IMG/VR virus record: IMGVR_UViG_3300044629_000431
Coordinates: 1 to 64,000 of that record
DNA from: a virus
DNA: 64,000 nucleotides
Direction: 5' to 3' (one strand)
Of the stretch, positions 51,480 to 59,301 are shown piece by piece. The first letter of the stretch is position 1. Each line of letters starts with the position of its first letter. The notes beneath the pieces were generated by a model that searched no databases, was not told the origin of the DNA, and saw nothing but the letters and a program-made list of their open reading frames with translations. Both the position numbers and the translations under genes were made by a program.

Positions 51480-52235
51480 TCAAATGATTCTTGTTTTTTC
51501 GTGACCAACGCGAACGCGAGGATCACACCAGATTTCAAAGCCTGCTTCCTTTGCATCCAAACAGAACGATACGTCTTCTCCACACATGTCCTGTACTTCA
51601 CCAGACTCAAAGACTTGCATCTTCGGTGCAAACCAAGGATACTTCATCTCAGGATGCTCAAAGACTCCTTTCTTAATCAGCAACCATCCAAAACCTGCAT
51701 AGTCAACAGTAAATGGCTTCCGACGCTTTTGAATCGTTTCTACGGTTTCATGATTCATCACACCACCATTGTTACGGAAGTCTTCCTCTTCCATCCAATG
51801 AGCAACAGATGTCGTGACACCATCTTCGGTTGCATACCAACCAGAAGCAATGTCTTGATCCATCAGAACCAGTTGCCAGAACTTTTCAGTATTGAATACA
51901 ATATCACTATCAATCCAAAGTTGCCAGTCATAGTTCAGTTTCCCATCCCAGGGAACCTGATCAGGACCACGCAGAACATTTGCACCCAGACACTTACAAC
52001 GTGCAAAGTTCACCATCGAACTGTAGTCTTGAGAGATCTGAATGCTTGCACCTGCCTGAACAAGATCAAAGCAGAGTTGTACAAAGTTCTTCAGATACGT
52101 GTAAGAAACACCTCTTCCAGGAAGACAGAATACAACTGACTTTCCTCTGACCATTTCTTTTGCCAAGTTGTAGTCCCATTCCTGTTCTTTTGCTACAACT
52201 GGAGTTTTTGCTTTTACGGTAAATCCTTTAGCCAT
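51480..52235 (-). CDS. GT-A fold glycosyltransferase-like protein
   Basis: WIDSD (DxD) motif, G.GW.LI.K.VFE and GED..FC; sigma70 promoter upstream. Confidence 0.72.
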   Translation of the reverse strand: MAKGFTVKAKTPVVAKEQEWDYNLAKEMVRGKSVVFCLPGRGVSYTYLKNFVQLCFDLVQAGASIQISQDYSSMVNFARCKCLGANVLRGPDQVPWDGKLNYDWQLWIDSDIVFNTEKFWQLVLMDQDIASGWYATEDGVTTSVAHWMEEEDFRNNGGVMNHETVETIQKRRKPFTVDYAGFGWLLIKKGVFEHPEMKYPWFAPKMQVFESGEVQDMCGEDVSFCLDAKEAGFEIWCDPRVRVGHEKTRII

Positions 52236-52258
52236 AGAGTTGATAAATTTACATTCAT

Positions 52259-52287
52259 ATCATACAGTATTATCTATGTAAAGTCAA
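52259..52287 (-). promoter_or_regulatory. sigma70-like promoter TTGACT-17-TATGAT
   Basis: Near-consensus boxes at exact 17-bp spacing, upstream of the glycosyltransferase-like gene. Confidence 0.7.
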
Positions 52288-52445
52288 GCAGAGAGTTCTT
52301 GAAAACTTAAGTCTTCTTTGCGGTAGTTTCCAATCAATTCTACAACGTGATTTAACATATCCCAGGTTTGATGAAAGTCTGTTTCAGTAAGATCTTCATA
52401 GATGCATTTCTCTTGAACGTAAATGCAGTAATGCTTTTCATTCAT
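52284..52445 (-). CDS. Hypothetical 53-aa protein (MNEKHYCIYVQEKCIYEDLTETDF...)
   Basis: Translated by hand; paralog-like to 51281-51478. Confidence 0.6.
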   Translation of the reverse strand: MNEKHYCIYVQEKCIYEDLTETDFHQTWDMLNHVVELIGNYRKEDLSFQELSA

Positions 52446-52611
52446 CACGTTCACTTAGAACAACCTCATCACCTTCTATTTTAACACATATCTCAGTATC
52501 TTCATACCATGAGAGTTCATTGATGATTGCTTCTGGTATATTAATAAAGTACTCACCAGTAATTGGATCGACTTGTAGGGGTTGAAAAAATTCTCCGGAG
52601 TTTTTCTTCAT
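52438..52611 (-). CDS. AbrB/MazE-like small DNA-binding protein (start MKKNSGE)
   Basis: GEYFINIPE.I.NEL.W.EDTEI.VKIEGDEVVL matches the swapped-hairpin pattern. Confidence 0.6.
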   Translation of the reverse strand: MKKNSGEFFQPLQVDPITGEYFINIPEAIINELSWYEDTEICVKIEGDEVVLSERDE

Positions 52612-52831
52612 TGAATGTATTATATGATTCGATTTTGTTTTTTTATATAGTACTTTTATACCTTTGATTATATCTCCGGGAAATTTTGAATTCGATGAAT
52701 ATTGATCGCTCGTTTTGGGTCGTTTATAGCTTACAGGGACCCAGAGGATTATAAAACGCCCCCACGCGCCCCGCGCCACGGGGACGCGGCGGGCGGGGGA
52801 ACTGCTGCCCCCCGCACGAACGCACAAGGCG

Positions 52832-53023
52832 TCACCAGGACGGCAGCGCCTCCTGTGCCTCCTGGGCGTGGGTCTCTGAATACTGGGCGGCGATGGCGGT
52901 AGCGGGCAACCCCCAGTGAATGTAGGCGGAGGGGCGGGAACCGTTCTTCAGCTGGTCAGCACGGGAGACCCACTTGATCTGACGGGTCTGGAGGTCAGAG
53001 CACATGCAGAGGGGGAAGCGCAT
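52832..53023 (-). CDS. Small early-region protein
   Basis: Preceded by a TAGGAT -10 box (53047-53052) and a GTTCAACCGACACCCG leader. Confidence 0.6.
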   Translation of the reverse strand: MRFPLCMCSDLQTRQIKWVSRADQLKNGSRPSAYIHWGLPATAIAAQYSETHAQEAQEALPSW

Positions 53024-53064
53024 CGGGTGTCGGTTGAACTGAGAGTATCCTACAGGGTCAGGGG

Positions 53065-53436
53065 TCAGATGGCAAGGGCATCATCGATCCGATCCATCAG
53101 GCGGTCACGGGCAGCGGCGCGACGGTCGGCAGCATACTGGGCAGCAGCGGCGGCAGCGTTGGCATCCTTATCCCCGACCCACTGGCGACCCAGAGAGTTG
53201 ACGGGGTTGAGCGTCCCCATGCGACCAGCACCGATAGCAATGTCACCCGACCCGACGTAAGAACCCTTACCAGCGTCGTGAGTCCCCAGAGCAGAGCGAC
53301 CCGAAGAATTGGTTTTGGTCAGAGCAGAGCGGCGGGTCTTACGGGCGGCAGACTTGAGCACCTTCACCTTAGGGGTCAGACCGTTGGCAGCGAGGTCAGC
53401 AGCGATGGCGGTCAGGTTGGCGGTCGAGCGGGTCAT
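53065..53436 (-). CDS. Basic Ala-rich early protein (start MTRSTANL)
   Basis: Promoter TGC-TACAAT (-10 at 53461-53466) and CAAACGACCC leader. Confidence 0.7.
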   Translation of the reverse strand: MTRSTANLTAIAADLAANGLTPKVKVLKSAARKTRRSALTKTNSSGRSALGTHDAGKGSYVGSGDIAIGAGRMGTLNPVNSLGRQWVGDKDANAAAAAAQYAADRRAAARDRLMDRIDDALAI

Positions 53437-53480
53437 GGGTCGTTTGTTTGAACTGAAAGTATTGTAGCAGGGGGGTCGGG

Positions 53481-53660
53481 TCAGTCGCGGTCGCTGATGT
53501 GCCAGATGCCCCACTGTCCATCCTGCTGGTTGCGAACCCTGATCGCTTCCTGCCGTTGCTGCCAATCATAGGTCTGCCATGCGTCAACCGTAGCGGCAAC
53601 GTCCGAAGGGTCGGAACCGTAGCAGGCATTCCAGATCAGGTTCGCTTCGTCAAGGGTCAT
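53481..53660 (-). CDS. Small early protein (start MTLDEANLIW)
   Basis: TGC-TACAAT (-10 at 53681-53686) and CAAACGACCC leader. Confidence 0.65.
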   Translation of the reverse strand: MTLDEANLIWNACYGSDPSDVAATVDAWQTYDWQQRQEAIRVRNQQDGQWGIWHISDRD

Positions 53661-53691
53661 GGGTCGTTTGCTTTGGGAGTATTGTAGCAGA

Positions 53692-53865
53692 TCAGAGGGC
53701 ATTCAGTTGGGAGGCGATCCGTTCCGCTTCGGCAGGGGTAGCGCAGTGGGCGGCATCATACCAGACCCCAGGCATCAGGCGGCGGCGGATTCGGGCGCCG
53801 TCCGTTCTATAGGTGCCAGGCGCCTTAAGGATCTTATCCAGCAGGGGGAGGCGGGGCAGGAGCAT
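53692..53865 (-). CDS. Small early protein (57 aa, MLLPRLPLLDK...)
   Basis: Translated by hand; TATACT -10 at 53889-53894. Confidence 0.55.
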   Translation of the reverse strand: MLLPRLPLLDKILKAPGTYRTDGARIRRRLMPGVWYDAAHCATPAEAERIASQLNAL

Positions 53866-53935
53866 CGGAGGTCGTCTGAACTGGAATCAGTATAGAAGCA
53901 AAAGGGAGGGGGGATGCCCCTCCGTTGTGCCACTA

Positions 53936-54103
53936 TCAGAATTGGATGGGTTCGGCAGTCGGTGCGCTGATGGCAGCATAGTGGGCGGCGGCATCAGCGA
54001 TGTTTGCGTCTGCCACGTCGTCAGCGATGGAGTCCAGCACCTGCAGGAGTTCGGCACCGTTGGCGGCGCGGTTCAGAAGAGCGGTAGCAAGGTCAGCGGT
54101 CAT
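53936..54103 (-). CDS. Small acidic Ala-rich early protein (MTADLATALLNRAANGAELL...)
   Basis: Its stop codon lies inside palindrome 53926-53949. Confidence 0.65.
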   Translation of the reverse strand: MTADLATALLNRAANGAELLQVLDSIADDVADANIADAAAHYAAISAPTAEPIQF

Positions 54104-54140
54104 GATGGAAGGAAGGTAAAGGGTCAAAGGGTAGGAAGGG

Positions 54141-54317
54141 TCAGGCAGCGATCAGCAGGTCATTCTCCCAGCGGGCAGCGGTCAGGATCTCATCGTAGAT
54201 CCGATCGGCAACCTGGTCAACGTAGCGGCGCTCATCCGCTTTCAGGATGGCAGCGCGGCACTGAGCGGCGATCTCATCAATGTTCAGAGCGCGGTCGGTG
54301 CGGGGGTTGTAGCGCAT
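54141..54317 (-). CDS. Small early protein (58 aa, MRYNPRTDRAL...ENDLLIAA)
   Basis: Translated by hand; TACACT -10 at 54342-54347 and CAAACGACCC leader. Confidence 0.65.
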   Translation of the reverse strand: MRYNPRTDRALNIDEIAAQCRAAILKADERRYVDQVADRIYDEILTAARWENDLLIAA

Positions 54318-54389
54318 GGGTCGTTTGCGGTTGACTTGTTAAGTGTAAGGGGTCAGGTGGGGGGTTGGTGCCCCCCTTGTGCCAGTTGA

Positions 54390-54566
54390 TCAATCGGCAT
54401 AGAGGCGCTGGAAGTCGTCCACAAACTCCCGTGCCTCATCGCCTGACATACGGGAGATCATCTCAGTGGCGATGGTCTCCCAGGAGTAGAGGTCTGCCAG
54501 ATCATAGATGGCGGACCGTGCCTGAGAGGCGGTCAGTTCGGAGGCGGTGATCTGAGCGTAGGTCAT
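54390..54566 (-). CDS. Small early protein (58 aa, MTYAQITASEL...MSGDEAREFVDDF)
   Basis: Translated by hand; TACAAT at 54590-54595; stop inside a palindrome. Confidence 0.65.
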   Translation of the reverse strand: MTYAQITASELTASQARSAIYDLADLYSWETIATEMISRMSGDEAREFVDDFQRLYAD

Positions 54567-54608
54567 GGGGTTTCGGTTGAACTGAAAGTATTGTAAGGGG
54601 TCAGGGGG

Positions 54609-54809
54609 TCAGGCGGCGGTGCTTTGTGCCACTTCCTCATCTGGCACACCGTGAAGAATGTCGATCATCTGCTGGTGGTAAGCATCAGCTTTGACCACTA
54701 CATTGTGAGACTCAGTTACATCCTCAATGTCATACTTTGTGAGTTCCAAAGTATTAATCACAGTGGAGAGGAGATCAGTCAGTGCCTCAATCTTTTGAGC
54801 GTCAGTCAT
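54609..54809 (-). CDS. Small acidic early protein (MTDAQKIEAL...)
   Basis: TACAAT at 54833-54838. Confidence 0.65.
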   Translation of the reverse strand: MTDAQKIEALTDLLSTVINTLELTKYDIEDVTESHNVVVKADAYHQQMIDILHGVPDEEVAQSTAA

Positions 54810-54852
54810 CAGATCCCTTTGCGGTTGATCCTATTGTAGGGGGTGGCGCCCC

Positions 54853-55104
54853 TCAGAACGCCACCAACTGATCCAGATCCCATTGTGGCACACGGGCGAC
54901 CTCATCGATCACGTAGTTGCCGCGATGCTTGCGAATCCAGGCGTTAACGTGCTTCGTGGTGGTGGCGCTCCACTGGTAAGCGGTGCGGATCCAACCCTTG
55001 CCAGGGACGATGGCGGCGACGGGTTGATCATAGGAGAACAGGATGCAGGTCCCGTCTGCCAGGGTCACCTCGGTTTGGTTGCTGCCGACTTGCTGGACTT
55101 TCAT
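54853..55104 (-). CDS. Early protein (83 aa, MKVQQVGSNQTEV...LFSYDQPVAA...SATTTKHVN.W)
   Basis: TACAAT at 55129-55134; carries an SY...S.TT..H motif typical of small phage proteins. Confidence 0.7.
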   Translation of the reverse strand: MKVQQVGSNQTEVTLADGTCILFSYDQPVAAIVPGKGWIRTAYQWSATTTKHVNAWIRKHRGNYVIDEVARVPQWDLDQLVAF

Positions 55105-55139
55105 GTGGTTCGCTTGTGAACTGAGAGTATTGTAAGGGG

Positions 55140-55307
55140 TCAGCGGGCGATCAGGTCGCCTGCAGTGTACAGTGCCTGAGCTGTCACATGGCGGACGGGG
55201 CGAATCGGTTCCCAGAGCAACCACAGCAGCAGAGCACCAACGGTCAGGCGGAGCATGGTAGCACGGTGGAAGTCTGCGGAGCGGGAACGGGTCAGGGCTT
55301 TGATCAT
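55140..55307 (-). CDS. Small putative membrane protein (55 aa, MIKALTRSRS...VGALLLWLLW)
   Basis: Translated by hand; ATGA overlap with the upstream ORF. Confidence 0.6.
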   Translation of the reverse strand: MIKALTRSRSADFHRATMLRLTVGALLLWLLWEPIRPVRHVTAQALYTAGDLIAR

Positions 55308-55450
55308 GGTGCCAGGTGAGCGGGGGAACCACAGGAGCGGTAGAATTCTACCATGCGTTCCGCTTCGTCAAGGGTGGGGAACCATTGCGACCGCCACTCA
55401 CAATTGTTGTAGGGGACCTGGTAGCGGACTTCGTAGCGGGTCAGTGCCAT
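55304..55450 (-). CDS. Small protein (48 aa, MALTRYEVRYQVPYNNCEWRSQWFPTLDEAERMVEFYRSCGSPA)
   Basis: Translated by hand; CATACT -10 at 55531-55536. Confidence 0.65.
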   Translation of the reverse strand: MALTRYEVRYQVPYNNCEWRSQWFPTLDEAERMVEFYRSCGSPAHLAP

Positions 55451-55631
55451 GGGTCGATTGAAATGCTTTGGGGTGGGCAGTCCTCACCTCTGCCCTTGGG
55501 GGGTCCTCTTTCCTCCCCCCTGGTGAACATAGTATGGCACGGGCTGGGGGTCAGATCAACGGGGTCTGTGCCAGTTCAAAAAGTGGCACAGGGTGGCTGG
55601 TCAGGGGGTGCTGGGGCTCTATGATAAGGTC

Positions 55632-55705
55632 ACAAGCGAAGGAGGGGCGGGGTATCCCTGAGGATGAAAAAGGTCGCCACGGGAGCAGCCTTAAATTATA
55701 AAAAG
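55632..55705 (+). ncRNA. Candidate small RNA, copy A (ends approximate)
   Basis: Plus-strand TATGAT (55620-55625) lies 29 bp from palindrome 55567. Core is 44/59 identical to 58680-58738 with no shared reading frame. Confidence 0.45.
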
Positions 55706-55711
55706 CATCGC

Positions 55712-55738
55712 AAAAAAGGGAGGGCGTCACCGCCACCC
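55712..55738 (-). terminator. Probable intrinsic terminator
   Basis: GGGTGGCG-GTGA-CGCCCTCCC imperfect hairpin followed by T6. Confidence 0.5.
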
Positions 55739-55903
55739 CAGAAAGGTGGCAGGGTTGCCATAGTCTGCGATCACAATCCCATTGCAACGGATCTCACAGT
55801 AACCGTAATCCTCAGACAGACTGTAGCACAGATCGTAGGCGCGATCCTCATCAGTGGTCGTGTTCTCCCAGGGAGCGGAGGGGCAGATCACATCGTAACG
55901 CAT
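55727..55903 (-). CDS. Small early protein (58 aa, MRYDVICPSAPWE...)
   Basis: TATACT -10 at 55931-55936. Confidence 0.65.
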   Translation of the reverse strand: MRYDVICPSAPWENTTTDEDRAYDLCYSLSEDYGYCEIRCNGIVIADYGNPATFLGWR

Positions 55904-55979
55904 TCGGTTTGGTTCGTTTGGTATGAAACCAGTATAAGGGGTCAGGCGGCAGGATCGGGGGTGGCAGTGTGCCACCTAT

Positions 55980-56876
55980 TCAACTGGCACACTGAAAGCG
56001 TCCGCTGTTGAAGTTATGATAAGCGAAGACCTCACGATTGACCAGTTTGAACATACCAAACTCATTGGTCATGACATAACCTTCGGCATCAATTCGGTTG
56101 CCGTTAATGTAAGCGGCAGGACCATCATTGCGGCAGAGGAACAAACAATCATCTTTGATAGACTTCACCAATGCCCACAGACGCAGCAGGTTAATGTCAC
56201 AATCAAAGTCTTTGGGGTTGACTTCTTCACCAGCACGAATGCAGGCATTGATCTGTTGTTTGATCTTTGTCGCTTCCTTATCACTCACAAAGGTGGCAGT
56301 GGTTGCCATTTGACGGGCAAAGTTGCAGACCTCTTCAACATCAGCGAACGACTCCTGATTGTGCAGGATGTATGCATTCGGTTTCACGAACTTCACGTGC
56401 TCAGTATCATTCCAGATAGCACGGTCAGGGAATGCAACAGCGTCACGAAGATCGCTCTCAGCATAATAGCAAGTGTGCGGAGCGATGATGATGCTTTGCG
56501 TTACAATGTCACCGAACTGATAGGTAATGGTGTTGGAAGTGTACTCATTCAGTCCACCAAACCCGATGAAGTCTGCCTGATAGATTGTCTCAGTACGGGG
56601 CAGACTATCAAAGCAACAGTGCAGAATCTGTGCAACGTTGCCATCATAAAATGCATCTACCTCTTCGTGAGAGTGAGCAATACGAATCTTTTTCTTGTTA
56701 AAGACTGCTTTGGTGCCCACGAAAAATGTACCCGTGGCAGGGTCAATACCCCACACGATAGCAGGAGCACCATCAATCTTCACAGAAAGATGACCCTTTG
56801 CAGTGAACCAATCAAGAACCGAAAGGTCACCCGTCAGGATGGTATCTTCGGGGTGTTCGAGGTGTGTGTTTTTCAT
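55980..56876 (-). CDS. Conserved phage protein with ligase/nucleotidyltransferase-like motifs (DUF6267-like)
   Basis: HLEHPED, SVKIDGAPA (KxDG), YQADF, EGYV and KLVNR motifs. Confidence 0.65.
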   Translation of the reverse strand: MKNTHLEHPEDTILTGDLSVLDWFTAKGHLSVKIDGAPAIVWGIDPATGTFFVGTKAVFNKKKIRIAHSHEEVDAFYDGNVAQILHCCFDSLPRTETIYQADFIGFGGLNEYTSNTITYQFGDIVTQSIIIAPHTCYYAESDLRDAVAFPDRAIWNDTEHVKFVKPNAYILHNQESFADVEEVCNFARQMATTATFVSDKEATKIKQQINACIRAGEEVNPKDFDCDINLLRLWALVKSIKDDCLFLCRNDGPAAYINGNRIDAEGYVMTNEFGMFKLVNREVFAYHNFNSGRFQCAS

Positions 56877-56937
56877 ACTGTTAGTATTGCACGAAAAAAG
56901 GAGGTCTGCAAGGGGGTGTGTGACAGTTCCTCAACTG

Positions 56938-57297
56938 TCACAAGTCATCCAGATTTACATTTTCCCAACCACTAAAATCAGGTTCTACATCACCCAGAAG
57001 TTGCTGAGCATAATATAACGTGCCACGTTCAAAGTTTCTATCACGAAAATCATCAGTTTGCCCACGATGCTTATACCAACTGAGAACACCGTGACCAACA
57101 TCAGAACGACTCACAATCGCCATATAATGATCATCACACCACACTTCATTCTCTTCTGCCATCTCACGCAATGCGGTGAGAGTTGCACAACACCAGTTGC
57201 GTTCTAGAAAGTTACCATTCTCATCAAAACCACATTTAGGATCATCACCTTCCCAATCTTTCACGAATGTGGAACAACGGGGGCATTTGTAAGTCAT
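56938..57297 (-). CDS. Cys-rich hypothetical protein
   Basis: CPRC...C.F....NWCC motif; has its own promoter cassette. Confidence 0.65.
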   Translation of the reverse strand: MTYKCPRCSTFVKDWEGDDPKCGFDENGNFLERNWCCATLTALREMAEENEVWCDDHYMAIVSRSDVGHGVLSWYKHRGQTDDFRDRNFERGTLYYAQQLLGDVEPDFSGWENVNLDDL

Positions 57298-57364
57298 CAG
57301 ATCCCTTTGTTTGTGATCTTAGTATTGCACGAAAAAAGGGGGGACGCAACCCCCCTTGTGCCAC

Positions 57365-57580
57365 TTATTCAACTGTCACACTCTCAATCAGTTCTTGAAT
57401 CACATCTTCATCATACACATACGAAATCTCAGTGAGAACATCCTCCTCAGATTTACCTGCGAAGTTCTCAACAATCGTATCATACGCAAACTGAATCAAA
57501 CACTTAACGTCCATCTCATCAACAATACGCTCAGCGTAGTTTTCAATGAGTTGGTCAAGTTGTTGGGAAGTGAGAGTCAT
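57365..57580 (-). CDS. Small acidic protein (Y..RIVDEMD.K.L family)
   Basis: 71-aa ORF; stop inside palindrome 57357. Confidence 0.65.
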   Translation of the reverse strand: MTLTSQQLDQLIENYAERIVDEMDVKCLIQFAYDTIVENFAGKSEEDVLTEISYVYDEDVIQELIESVTVE

Positions 57581-57589
57581 GAGTTTGTA

Positions 57590-57769
57590 TCAGTTAGAAG
57601 GAAAGTTACGGCAGACAGCATCACATAGCGTCTTCACCAGTTCCTGTTGTTCTTCATTGTATTCATCACCCCAAGTGTCATAAAAAAAACTTTCGATGAT
57701 ACAATCAATGTCCTCCATGAGTTGTTCACGAGCAGACAACATTTCCAGTTTAGGATTCAATTCAGGCAT
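57590..57769 (-). CDS. Small acidic protein (59 aa, MPELNPKLEML...LCDAVCRNF)
   Basis: Translated by hand; TGATG coupling with the upstream ORF. Confidence 0.6.
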   Translation of the reverse strand: MPELNPKLEMLSAREQLMEDIDCIIESFFYDTWGDEYNEEQQELVKTLCDAVCRNFPSN

Positions 57770-57894
57770 CAGTAATCGTAGTTAGCGTTCAGGTACTCAT
57801 TGACATCGAACTTCTCATCACGAAGTTCAGGAATGTCAAGGTCAAAAATCTCACCGGGCATGTCTTGGATTTCAGACCAGAGTTCATCAAACAT
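57769..57894 (-). CDS. Very acidic 41-aa protein (MFDELWSEIQDMPGEIFDLD...)
   Basis: Translated by hand; promoter TTGCAA-17-TACATT. Confidence 0.6.
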   Translation of the reverse strand: MFDELWSEIQDMPGEIFDLDIPELRDEKFDVNEYLNANYDY

Positions 57895-57973
57895 GGTTTG
57901 TCTCTCAGGGACGAATGTAATGTATCAGGGTCTGGGGGGCATTGCAACCCCCCTTGTGCCACTTGTCAGACTG

Positions 57974-58267
57974 TCACACCAAACAGAATGCGTGGTTTTG
58001 AACAACATTTACCATGACACATTCCTGACGAAACTGTTTCTTATACTCGTCTGCAATGATCAACACTTCATCCAACATTTCCTCAGAGATAACAGTGAGA
58101 ATACGAACCTTTTCGTATTCACCATTCCAACAACCATAACCCTCAGTGAGTGTAAACCCCGTCAGGTTTTCTTGAATGATTTCTTTCAAAAACGAAGAGA
58201 ACATTACTGCATTCACTTCACCTGCATCAGGAATGTTTGCACCGAAGTAAACAGTGGTGGTGAACAT
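57974..58267 (-). CDS. DUF3574-like protein, candidate phage SAM lyase
   Basis: FG.NIP, GFT....G.W.G..E and IA.EYK.QF.Q.CV motif pattern. Confidence 0.55.
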   Translation of the reverse strand: MFTTTVYFGANIPDAGEVNAVMFSSFLKEIIQENLTGFTLTEGYGCWNGEYEKVRILTVISEEMLDEVLIIADEYKKQFRQECVMVNVVQNHAFCLV

Positions 58268-58335
58268 TGAAGTTTCTCAACTGTGGTTAGAATACACGAA
58301 ACCAGGGACCTTGCAACATACCCTGTGACACTTTC

Positions 58336-58551
58336 TCAACTGGCACTCTTCATGTAGATACGGTCCATAATGCACAATGAAAGGTCAAAACGAATGTCAT
58401 CATCAACATCACCCATCTTTGCCTGAATAGCATCAGGAATGATCTCTTGCATAAAGTCTACCCAACGTTCATCAGCAAAAATATAATCAACCACTTCAGG
58501 GGTCAAAGCATCAGCGAGTTTCTGAATAGTTTGGTTGGAGAGAGTCATCAA
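58336..58551 (-). CDS. Small early protein (LS..TI.KLADAL..EV family)
   Basis: Stop inside palindrome 58324; has its own promoter cassette. Confidence 0.65.
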   Translation of the reverse strand: MMTLSNQTIQKLADALTPEVVDYIFADERWVDFMQEIIPDAIQAKMGDVDDDIRFDLSLCIMDRIYMKSAS

Positions 58552-58671
58552 AACCTCACGAACAAATGTACACTAACCCATCACCTGGTAGGTTGCAACC
58601 ACCCTTGTGCCACTAGACAAACTGGCACAAGACCCCTTGATCGGGACCATCTGCCGTGATATCTTATAACA

Positions 58672-58740
58672 AATTCAATGAGGGGAGAGGTATCCCTGTA
58701 GACGAAAATACATCGCCACCGCTCCTGCCATAAAATATTC
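58672..58740 (+). ncRNA. Candidate small RNA, copy B (ends approximate)
   Basis: Plus-strand TTGATC-17-TATCTT (58637-58665), with the -10 box 30 bp from palindrome 58606; homologous to copy A. Confidence 0.45.
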
Positions 58741-58770
58741 ATTCTCAATAAGGCGCGCCTTATTGAGAAT
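58741..58770. promoter_or_regulatory. Perfect 30-bp palindrome ATTCTCAATAA-GGCGCGCC-TTATTGAGAAT
   Basis: Seen directly; a second copy of the arms lies at 59466-59497. Confidence 0.7.
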
Positions 58771-58801
58771 TATATCATGTGCCAATATTTAAACTGGCAC
58801 A

Positions 58802-58954
58802 TTACTCGAACGGATCGAACTCTTGTACCCTACAATGGATATCTTCACCTGGTTCGAGTTCGAGTAAGTCACGCCAATTAATATTATCTAGATCTAGATC
58901 ATCATAACACATGATGTCTAGTGTTACCTGTATGATGCGTTTTTGTGCTAGCAT
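58802..58954 (-). CDS. Small acidic protein (50 aa, MLAQKRIIQVTLDIMCYDDLDLDNINWRDLLEL...)
   Basis: Translated by hand; the stop abuts palindrome 58778. Confidence 0.6.
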   Translation of the reverse strand: MLAQKRIIQVTLDIMCYDDLDLDNINWRDLLELEPGEDIHCRVQEFDPFE

Positions 58955-58960
58955 AGGTGT

Positions 58961-59301
58961 CTCGTCTAGATGTATGTGTCTAGTCTAGATTGTATCATGC
59001 ATAATGACGATATGCAAGACTTTCGTAATCTTGCCCATCTCGTGCATAATCCTCGTCGAGATCTAGTGCATCTTGTGCATAATACTCGTCGAGATCGTAT
59101 GAATGATCGTTACAGTATGTGTAGTCGAGATCGTAGTCGTCGTACATAAGCTCGTCGAGATCTTTGAAACGCATGTGTATTGTAGCATAAAGCTCGACGA
59201 GATGCAAGATATACTAGATGTAGATCTCGACGAGATTCATAACAATATATATGTGTTCTCGTCTAGAATTGTGTGCTTCTCGACACATGTTCTCGACTAG
59301 A
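58961..59301. repeat. Ten copies of the 10-mer CT(C/A)G(T/A)C(G/T)AGA, mostly ~33 bp apart
   Basis: Starts at 58961, 58980, 59052, 59085, 59121 (one mismatch), 59151, 59193, 59226, 59258 and 59292. Confidence 0.8.
58995..59147 (-). CDS. Asp/Tyr-rich 50-aa protein (MYDDYDLDYTY...)
   Basis: Promoter TTGCAT-17-TACAAT at 59179-59207. Confidence 0.55.
   Translation of the reverse strand: MYDDYDLDYTYCNDHSYDLDEYYAQDALDLDEDYARDGQDYESLAYRHYA

What the first reader, a model, noticed from the sequence alone, without database searches (positions are those of the whole stretch)
55567..58740. Two palindromes with promoters on both sides, each pointing into a homologous non-coding element: candidate new phage sRNA family
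Seen: palindromes 55567 and 58606 have -10 boxes at 29-30 bp on both sides. About 8-10 nt after each predicted plus-strand start lies a related sequence. Copy A (55642-55699) is GAGGGGCGGGGTATCCCTGAGGATGAAAA-AGGTCGCCACGGGAGCAGCCTTAAATTAT. Copy B (58680-58738) is GAGGGGAGAGGTATCCCTGTAGACGAAAATACATCGCCACCGCTCCTGCCATAAAATAT. They match at 44 of 59 positions, with conserved blocks GGTATCCCTG, GAAAA, TCGCCAC and GCC.TAAA. A 1-nt indel and an ATG/ACG difference argue against coding. Both occupy gene-free gaps and run opposite to the array. Inference: paralogous early small RNAs acting as protein decoys, anti-defence RNAs or host-mRNA regulators, co-regulated with the early cassettes. I do not recognise the family.
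Basis: partly seen in the sequence, partly recalled or inferred. Interest (0 to 1): 0.82.

Follow-up and report, generated by a model that had tools for sequence, protein, structure and literature searches.

The report
Paired small-RNA genes in lake cyanophages
The two look-alike gap sequences are real, anciently duplicated copies of an undescribed, promoter-driven, hairpin-forming non-coding RNA that many freshwater T4-like cyanophages (four cultured ones included) carry pointing against their early genes; what the RNA does is still unknown.

Summary
Copies A (55642-55699) and B (58680-58738) match at 44 of 59 positions, far above shuffles. Each lies 6-8 nt downstream of a plus-strand -10 box that sits 29-30 nt from a 24-bp palindrome.

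They are not a local duplication. Pattern scans plus profile searches found the element in 155 viral loci, giving 96 distinct sequences. It also occurs in the cultured phages S-SRM01, DSL-LC03, B3 and B23. In 24 of 26 two-copy loci an A-type copy precedes a B-type copy on the same strand, in conserved gene order.

A 5-bp hairpin (P1) near the RNA start is paired in 99.8% of cells, and three of its five pairs show compensatory changes. Its G-U pairs favour the plus strand. No reading frame stays open across the family, and indels are 1, 2 and 5 nt.

There was no Rfam match. Nothing was found in five marine cyanomyoviruses or in 151 cyanobacterial genomes.

Best reading: an early, host-sigma70-driven, structured small-RNA gene family whose partner is unknown. 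Transcription itself is not shown, because no read data were available.

Earlier reports of this scan describe backward small-RNA cassettes on other DNA and name B3 and B23. That is probably the same or a related family.

The parts
55567..55590 (.). 24-bp palindrome (PeSL-like stem-loop) flanked by promoters on both sides
   Evidence: Pattern search: 9 copies against 0.17 expected. A half-site ends 29-32 nt upstream of the -10 box in 78 of 96 family members.
55598..55625 (+). Promoter of copy A: TGGTCA, 16-nt spacer, TATGAT
   Evidence: Listed by the promoter scan at 9 of 12 matches. Family members keep a TAnnnT hexamer 6 or 8 nt before the element in 89 of 96 sequences.
55634..55703 (+). Copy A, the A-type RNA core; predicted start near 55632-55634
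   Evidence: R2 model: 73.4 bits, E 1.6e-18. nhmmer: E 2e-11.
55644..55659 (+). P1 hairpin of copy A: stem 55644-55648 with 55655-55659, loop 55649-55654. The loop-closing pair is a C.U mismatch in this copy.
   Evidence: Family covariation. The mismatch is the single unpaired cell at that pair.
55663..55678 (+). Possible P2 hairpin of copy A (55663-55667 with 55674-55678), followed by the near-invariant CAC
   Evidence: 82.7% of cells paired, one-sided changes only.
55721..55739 (-). Intrinsic terminator of the convergent minus-strand gene, just beyond copy A
   Evidence: Terminator scan: stem followed by a T run on the minus strand.
58606..58629 (.). 24-bp palindrome flanked by promoters on both sides
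   Evidence: The same palindrome plus -35 region heads ordinary early genes in marine cyanophages.
58637..58665 (+). Promoter of copy B: TTGATC, 17-nt spacer, TGn-extended TATCTT
   Evidence: Read. TATCTT is the commonest -10 box of the family, in 40 of 96 sequences.
58672..58741 (+). Copy B, the B-type RNA core; predicted start near 58671-58673
   Evidence: R2 model: 81.6 bits, E 6.2e-21. R1 model: 92.5 bits.
58682..58697 (+). P1 hairpin of copy B: stem 58682-58686 with 58693-58697, loop 58687-58692
58701..58717 (+). Possible P2 hairpin of copy B (58701-58705 with 58713-58717)
58741..58770 (.). 13-bp hairpin: terminator of the convergent 50-aa gene and the likely 3' end of the B RNA
   Evidence: Terminator scan, minus strand. 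It folds in both strands. In relatives the arms are conserved and the loop varies.

Best explanation
Copies A and B are two paralogous genes of one family of short, structured, non-coding RNAs found in freshwater T4-like cyanophages.

Each is probably transcribed early in infection by the host sigma70-type RNA polymerase. The promoter is built like those of the neighbouring early-gene cassettes but points the other way.

Predicted layout of the RNA:
- It starts about 10 nt before a 5-bp hairpin (P1) with a purine-rich six-base loop, usually GGGGUA.
- A small second hairpin follows, overlapping a near-invariant UCGCCAC box.
- Then come a C- or G-rich tail and an A/U-rich stretch.
- It probably ends at the two-way hairpin that also terminates the convergent gene, which would make the B RNA roughly 100 nt.

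Shown here: homology, spread across phages, conserved order of the two subtypes, promoter conservation, covariation in P1, the strand preference implied by G-U pairs, and absence of a conserved reading frame.

Inferred only: that the RNA is made, and that it acts in trans through its conserved loop and box on a protein or RNA partner that remains unknown.
For: Family size and spread:
- 155 viral loci hold the element, giving 96 distinct sequences.
- It is present and unannotated in S-SRM01, DSL-LC03, B3 and B23.

Structure:
- P1 is paired in 99.8% of cells.
- The closing pair is CG 42, AU 36, UA 8, GC 6. Two further pairs show double changes.
- The covariation score is 0.246, against 0.070 for shuffles (0 of 500 reach it) and at most 0.069 when the partner columns are slid (smaller set).

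Strand:
- The base pair of P1 is G-U in 90 of 96 sequences, and P2 has U-G in 13. These would be A.C mismatches on the other strand.
- The elements lie just beyond minus-strand terminators.

Promoter:
- A TAnnnT hexamer lies 6 or 8 nt upstream in 89 of 96 sequences. The hexamer varies among 13 forms.
- 40 of 96 carry a TGn extension.

Not coding:
- No frame is open in more than 57 of 96 sequences.
- Indels are 1, 2 and 5 nt.
- The compensatory stem changes would be radical amino-acid changes.

Old paralogy: the order is A-type then B-type, on the same strand, in 24 of 26 two-copy loci, with shared flanking genes.
Against:
- Apart from P1 the structure is weak. P2 has no double-sided changes.
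- The whole-element fold of copy A is no better than shuffles (z -0.97 and 0.05).
- Copy A in this window has a mismatch at the loop-closing pair and a poor -35 box.
- No clear plus-strand terminator follows copy A.
- No target or partner could be named. Complementarity to the phage's own genome does not exceed shuffles.
Confidence: 0.6

Rival explanations
1. Cis-acting convergent (antisense) element. The backward transcript overlaps the 3' end of the gene that runs into it: the DUF6267 gene or its small neighbour for copy A, and the 50-aa acidic gene for copy B. It would control that mRNA's stability, or act as an insulator that stops read-through between cassettes.
For: - Conserved linkage: the A-type copy is followed by a convergent DUF6267 gene and the B-type copy by homologues of the 50-aa gene in most two-copy loci.
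- The hairpins next to the elements are terminators of those genes and could be shared by both transcripts.
Against: - The strongly conserved, covarying part lies outside any overlap with the neighbouring gene.
- In S-SRM01, L077 and L136 the B-type copy is not next to the 50-aa gene.
- DSL-LC03 and a complete 236-kb relative carry a single copy in other surroundings.
Confidence: 0.17
2. A promoter-proximal RNA that modifies the transcribing polymerase in cis, as the put RNAs of phage HK022 do. Transcription would then read through the converging terminators and produce long antisense RNA over the early cassettes.
For: - Hairpins form within about 50 nt of the predicted start.
- There are two paralogues per genome, each behind an early promoter.
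- No plus-strand terminator was found after copy A.
- The comparison with put rests on my own knowledge of that system.
Against: - There is no sequence or structure match to any curated RNA family.
- The second hairpin is poorly supported.
- Copy number ranges from 1 to 3.
- No benefit of antisense read-through is evident.
Confidence: 0.05
3. Primer-RNA replication origin of the T4 oriF/oriG type: a promoter, a G-rich structured transcript that forms an R-loop, and an A/T-rich unwinding stretch.
For: - A/T-rich sequence follows nearly every copy.
Against: - Cumulative GC skew shows no turning point here.
- The G runs are not conserved as such. They change whenever the stem covaries.
- The neighbouring 'iteron' repeats fall inside a small acidic reading frame with repeated D-L-D codons.
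- The A/T-rich stretch doubles as the U-tract of the convergent terminator.
Confidence: 0.05
4. The A-type copies encode an 11-12-residue micro-peptide (of the form M-T-K-T-V-A-T-P-P-A-I-K), possibly alongside an RNA role.
For: - 33 of 45 A-type sequences have an in-frame ATG at one of two adjacent codons, and 20 of those stop after 10-13 codons.
- The changes at the last two positions are conservative.
Against: - 10 of 45 A-type sequences have no start codon, and 13 run on without a stop.
- 43 of 51 B-type sequences have no start.
- The shared box is read in different frames in the two types.
- In this window the frame runs 115 codons antisense through real genes.
Confidence: 0.05
5. A DNA-level site, such as a protein-binding or recombination site of the cassette array, with no RNA product.
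For: - The element sits in a PeSL-like array that exchanges cassettes in relatives.
- Large blocks are invariant at the sequence level.
Against: - Compensatory changes keep a hairpin that includes G-U pairs, which points to RNA.
- A promoter is conserved at a fixed distance upstream.
Confidence: 0.03

Closest known systems
PeSL cassettes (promoter-early stem-loops) of T4-type phages (Arbiol et al. 2010, PMC2839356; Comeau et al. 2014, PMC4122927)
   Same: A composite stem-loop plus host-type early promoter is repeated between small genes of a variable region in a T4-like phage. The same palindrome-plus-promoter unit heads ordinary early genes in marine cyanophages.
   Different: - PeSLs as described drive the next open reading frame along the array.
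- Here the unit fires backwards into a conserved, covarying, frame-less 70-nt element.
- The palindrome is absent from the DSL-LC03 and B3 copies.
put antitermination RNAs of phage HK022 (from my own knowledge)
   Same: Two paralogous elements of about 70 nt per genome, each behind an early promoter and built from small hairpins.
   Different: No detectable similarity to any curated family. The second hairpin is weak. The element faces converging genes rather than an operon to be read through.
Known cyanophage RNAs: the CfrI antisense RNA of S-PM2 and the wcaG, manA, glnA and abiF motifs (review PMC12197685)
   Same: Non-coding RNA elements carried by cyanomyoviruses.
   Different: - No Rfam family matches, even at E up to 10 over 55400-59000.
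- Nothing was found in S-PM2, Syn9, Syn19, Syn30 or P-RSM1.
- The element is not a leader of a downstream gene and is not antisense to psbA.
Convergent antisense RNAs of type I toxin-antitoxin pairs, such as txpA/RatA (from my own knowledge)
   Same: A small RNA gene convergent with a small protein gene, possibly overlapping at the shared terminator.
   Different: The convergent 50-aa protein is acidic and not hydrophobic. The conserved part of the RNA lies outside any overlap. The linkage is not obligatory.

Membership tests
Any Rfam 15 family | Covariance-model match at the family's gathering score | tested here: not met
   There were no matches in the whole window at gathering scores. At E up to 10 over 55400-59000, nothing overlaps either copy.
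PeSL cassette | Stem-loop joined to a sigma70-type early promoter, repeated between small genes of a variable region | tested here: met
   The palindrome occurs 9 times against 0.17 expected. A half-site lies 29-32 nt from the -10 box in 78 of 96 family members. Flanking genes differ among relatives.
PeSL cassette | The promoter drives the next open reading frame in the direction of the array | tested here: not met
   Both promoters point against the minus-strand genes. No frame stays open across the family.
HK022 put-type antiterminator RNA | Two adjacent conserved stem-loops in the nascent RNA | tested here: inconclusive
   P1 is strongly supported. P2 is 82.7% paired but has no double-sided changes.
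HK022 put-type antiterminator RNA | Terminator read-through by the polymerase that made the RNA | not testable with these tools
   This needs in vitro or in vivo transcription assays.
Type I toxin-antitoxin antisense RNA | The partner gene encodes a small hydrophobic toxin | tested here: not met
   The convergent 50-aa product is acidic.
T4 oriF/oriG-type origin | Promoter followed by an A/T-rich unwinding element used for R-loop priming | tested here: inconclusive
   A/T-rich sequence is present, but GC skew has no turning point and the stretch also serves as a terminator U-tract.
Cyanobacterial Yfr1 sRNA | Conserved unpaired C-rich motif between two hairpins; match to the Rfam model | tested here: not met
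   No Rfam match. The C-rich tail is replaced by a G-rich one in many A-type copies. No homologue was found in the 151 cyanobacterial genomes searched.

The most novel reading that the evidence does not exclude
The family is an early phage RNA whose conserved hairpin loop and box bind and neutralise a host protein, for example a defence or RNA-processing factor of freshwater picocyanobacteria. The A and B types would be two specialised decoys. This would be a new class of RNA-based takeover or counter-defence factor in T4-like phages.
Probability: 0.12. Interest if true: 0.8.

Novelty: new variant of a known kind. Interest (0 to 1): 0.55.

Why it matters
Very few trans-acting RNAs are known from lytic phages, and none has been described for the early programme of cyanomyoviruses.

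- This family is widespread in lake viromes.
- Its structure has covariation support.
- Its two subtypes keep a fixed order in most two-copy genomes.
- It is present in four phages that can be grown in the laboratory (S-SRM01, DSL-LC03, B3, B23), so its expression and role can be tested directly.
- It also shows that PeSL-type promoter cassettes can carry an RNA gene facing backwards, and not only small protein genes.

Tried and rejected
- Rfam at gathering scores and at permissive thresholds: nothing.
- Long-range pairing of the 5' G-rich strand with the 3' tail, which is the minimum-energy fold of copy B: not supported. 73% of cells are paired against 72% in shuffles, and covariation is 0.079 against 0.076.
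- Minus-strand RNA: it gives slightly better consensus energy on the first, biased alignment. I rejected it because of the G-U pairs, the minus-strand terminators upstream of it, and the conserved plus-strand promoter.
- Coding in the frame starting at GAG, and a short minus-strand peptide: rejected because there are no conserved starts, indels are not multiples of three, and no frame is conserved.
- Hammerhead-like CUGAUGA...GAAA in A-type copies: there is no helix II and the motif is not conserved.
- Origin of replication: GC skew is uninformative.
- Host origin:
  - The exact B-type pattern is absent from one genome for each of 185,579 prokaryote species.
  - A looser pattern gave only chance hits.
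  - 151 cyanobacterial genomes gave only two weak hits at chance level.
- Marine cyanomyoviruses Syn30, P-RSM1, Syn19, Syn9 and S-PM2: no match, with S-SRM01 as a positive control.
- Targets in the phage's own genome: strict complementarity equals shuffles, and the wobble excess is compositional.
- Literature: no paper holds the motifs. The S-SRM01 paper mentions no such RNA.
Full report
**Context.** The window is the first 64 kb of a 146-kb IMG/VR virus record estimated 69% complete. Gene content and nearest relatives place it among T4-like cyanomyoviruses (Kyanoviridae). The closest cultured relative at this locus is the freshwater Synechococcus phage S-SRM01. Between about 53.5 and 58.9 kb the minus strand carries an array of small genes. 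One of them, at 55983-56876, is a DUF6267 protein (Pfam E 4.7e-76). The long plus-strand frame opposite it has no family match and I take it to be spurious.

**Checking the observation.**
- The palindrome occurs nine times between 54625 and 58801, against 0.17 expected.
- In minus-strand sense each copy is followed by a -35/-10 pair and a small gene. This is the layout of PeSL cassettes of T4-type phages (PMC2839356, PMC4122927).
- The palindromes at 55567 and 58606 also have plus-strand -10 boxes 29 and 30 nt away.
- Copies A and B share 44 of 59 positions with one 1-nt gap. The local score is 42 against a shuffle mean of 14.4.

The description is therefore accurate.

**Relatives.**
- Two scans of IMG/VR anchored on the first conserved blocks gave many true homologues with the same anatomy.
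- Those scans fixed one strand of the hairpin. I therefore repeated them with patterns from the second half of the element only.
- Together with profile searches this gives 155 loci and 96 distinct 70-nt sequences.
- Two subtypes exist, differing mainly in the loop of the second hairpin. Copy A is A-type and copy B is B-type.
- In 26 loci that hold two copies, both are always on the same strand, 0.9-5.3 kb apart. In 24 of these the order is A-type then B-type.
- Flanking genes are shared. The DUF6267 gene converges on the A-type copy, and homologues of the 50-aa gene at 58802-58954 converge on the B-type copy.
- The pair is therefore an old duplication kept in order, not a recent local repeat.
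- Copy number by covariance model:

| Genome | Copies |
|---|---|
| This record (146 kb) | 2 |
| Complete 236-kb relative | 1 |
| DSL-LC03 | 1 |
| S-SRM01 | 2 |
| B3 | 3 |

. None of the copies is annotated in the GenBank records.

**Structure.**
- On the 96-sequence alignment, the hairpin P1 (columns 11-15 with 22-26) is paired in 99.8% of cells.
- The loop-closing pair is CG in 42 sequences, AU in 36, UA in 8 and GC in 6.
- The third pair is GC 80, UA 10, CG 6. The second pair is GC 90, CG 5, AU 1.
- The covariation score is 0.246. Shuffles give 0.070 and none of 500 reaches the observed value. Sliding the partner columns gives at most 0.069.
- A smaller hand-picked set, which includes the S-SRM01-type stem with four changed pairs, agrees.
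- The six-base loop is nearly constant.
- A second hairpin (columns 30-34 with 42-46) is compatible with the data but shows only one-sided changes. An alternative 3-bp register fits the B3 and DSL-LC03 copies better.
- The extended 5'-3' fold that RNAfold prefers for copy B has no comparative support.

**Strand and promoter.**
- The base pair of P1 is G-U in 90 of 96 sequences, and P2 has U-G in 13. Both would be mismatches in the complementary RNA.
- The hairpins just beyond each element score as minus-strand terminators of the converging genes. Minus-strand polymerases should therefore mostly stop before reaching the element.
- Upstream on the plus strand, a TAnnnT hexamer lies 6 or 8 nt before the element in 89 of 96 sequences. 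It takes 13 different forms, and 40 have a TGn extension.
- A palindrome half-site ends 29-32 nt before the hexamer in 78 of 96.
- The palindrome-plus-(-35) unit in front of copy B matches units that head ordinary early genes in Syn30, Syn19 and P-RSM1.
- DSL-LC03 has a near-consensus promoter without the palindrome.
- A conserved promoter whose letters drift while its form stays is good indirect evidence for plus-strand transcription. It is still indirect, because I could obtain no read data.

**Coding potential.**
- No frame is open across the core in more than 57 of 96 sequences.
- Indels of 1, 2 and 5 nt separate A-type from B-type, the S-SRM01 B-type copy from the others, and the S-SRM01 A-type copy from the others.
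- The compensatory stem changes would be radical at the protein level.
- One oddity remains. Most A-type copies could encode an 11-12-residue peptide. However, a fifth of them lack a start codon, many lack the stop, and B-type copies lack the frame altogether.

**Limits of the family.**
- No Rfam match.
- No match in five marine cyanomyoviruses.
- No B-type pattern in one genome for each of 185,579 prokaryote species.
- Nothing above chance in 151 cyanobacterial genomes.
- No paper with these motifs, and no mention in the S-SRM01 genome paper.
- The known cyanophage RNAs listed in a 2025 review are different elements.

**Mechanism.**
- The best-supported statement is that these are genes for a small structured RNA made early, from cassette-type promoters, against the gene flow.
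- The strongest sequence constraint falls on the P1 loop and on the box after P2, not on the variable tail. I therefore favour recognition of these parts by a protein or by a loop-loop contact over a classical linear seed. This is inference.
- I found no complementarity to the phage's own genome beyond shuffles.
- The conserved convergent neighbours keep a cis-antisense or insulator role alive.
- Polymerase modification, origin priming, a micro-peptide and a purely DNA-level site are less likely, for the reasons given under each rival.

**Earlier notes of this scan.**
- Reports on other genomes (e1-5699156, e1-5340261, e1-5340299) describe promoter-driven backward small-RNA cassettes with a covarying mini-hairpin in lake cyanophages and name B3 and B23.
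- My models hit B3 and B23 at E 1.4e-12 and weaker.
- This is therefore probably the same or a related family, seen here in its two-copy form. I could not compare the sequences directly.

Noticed in passing
window 52000-56000: A G+C-rich island (0.52-0.57, against about 0.35 for most of the record) with positive GC skew covers the small-gene cassettes just left of copy A.
   Followed up: no
window 58995-59207 (minus) and 58802-58954 (minus): Both frames encode small, very acidic proteins rich in D-L-D repeats. The 'iteron-like' DNA repeats that other readers noted right of copy B fall inside the first frame and may simply be codon repeats.
   Followed up: partly
window 58741-58770; relatives such as L003, L013, L041: The 11-bp arms of this perfect palindrome are conserved directly after B-type copies in many relatives, while the 4-8-nt loop varies. 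It scores as a minus-strand terminator. This fits a shared two-way terminator better than a recombinase site.
   Followed up: partly
window 56016-56975 (plus): A 319-codon open frame lies antisense to the DUF6267 gene. It has no Pfam match and is probably spurious.
   Followed up: partly
L269, L271, L288 and similar loci (A-type copies): In one subgroup the A/U-rich stretch after the tail is replaced by a short direct repeat of about 10 nt (CAGCCGACTT-like) before the terminator.
   Followed up: no
L344 5060-5210 (phage DSL-LC03): The single copy in DSL-LC03 is followed by about 150 nt of A/T-rich DNA with several short direct and inverted repeats before the next terminator.
   Followed up: no
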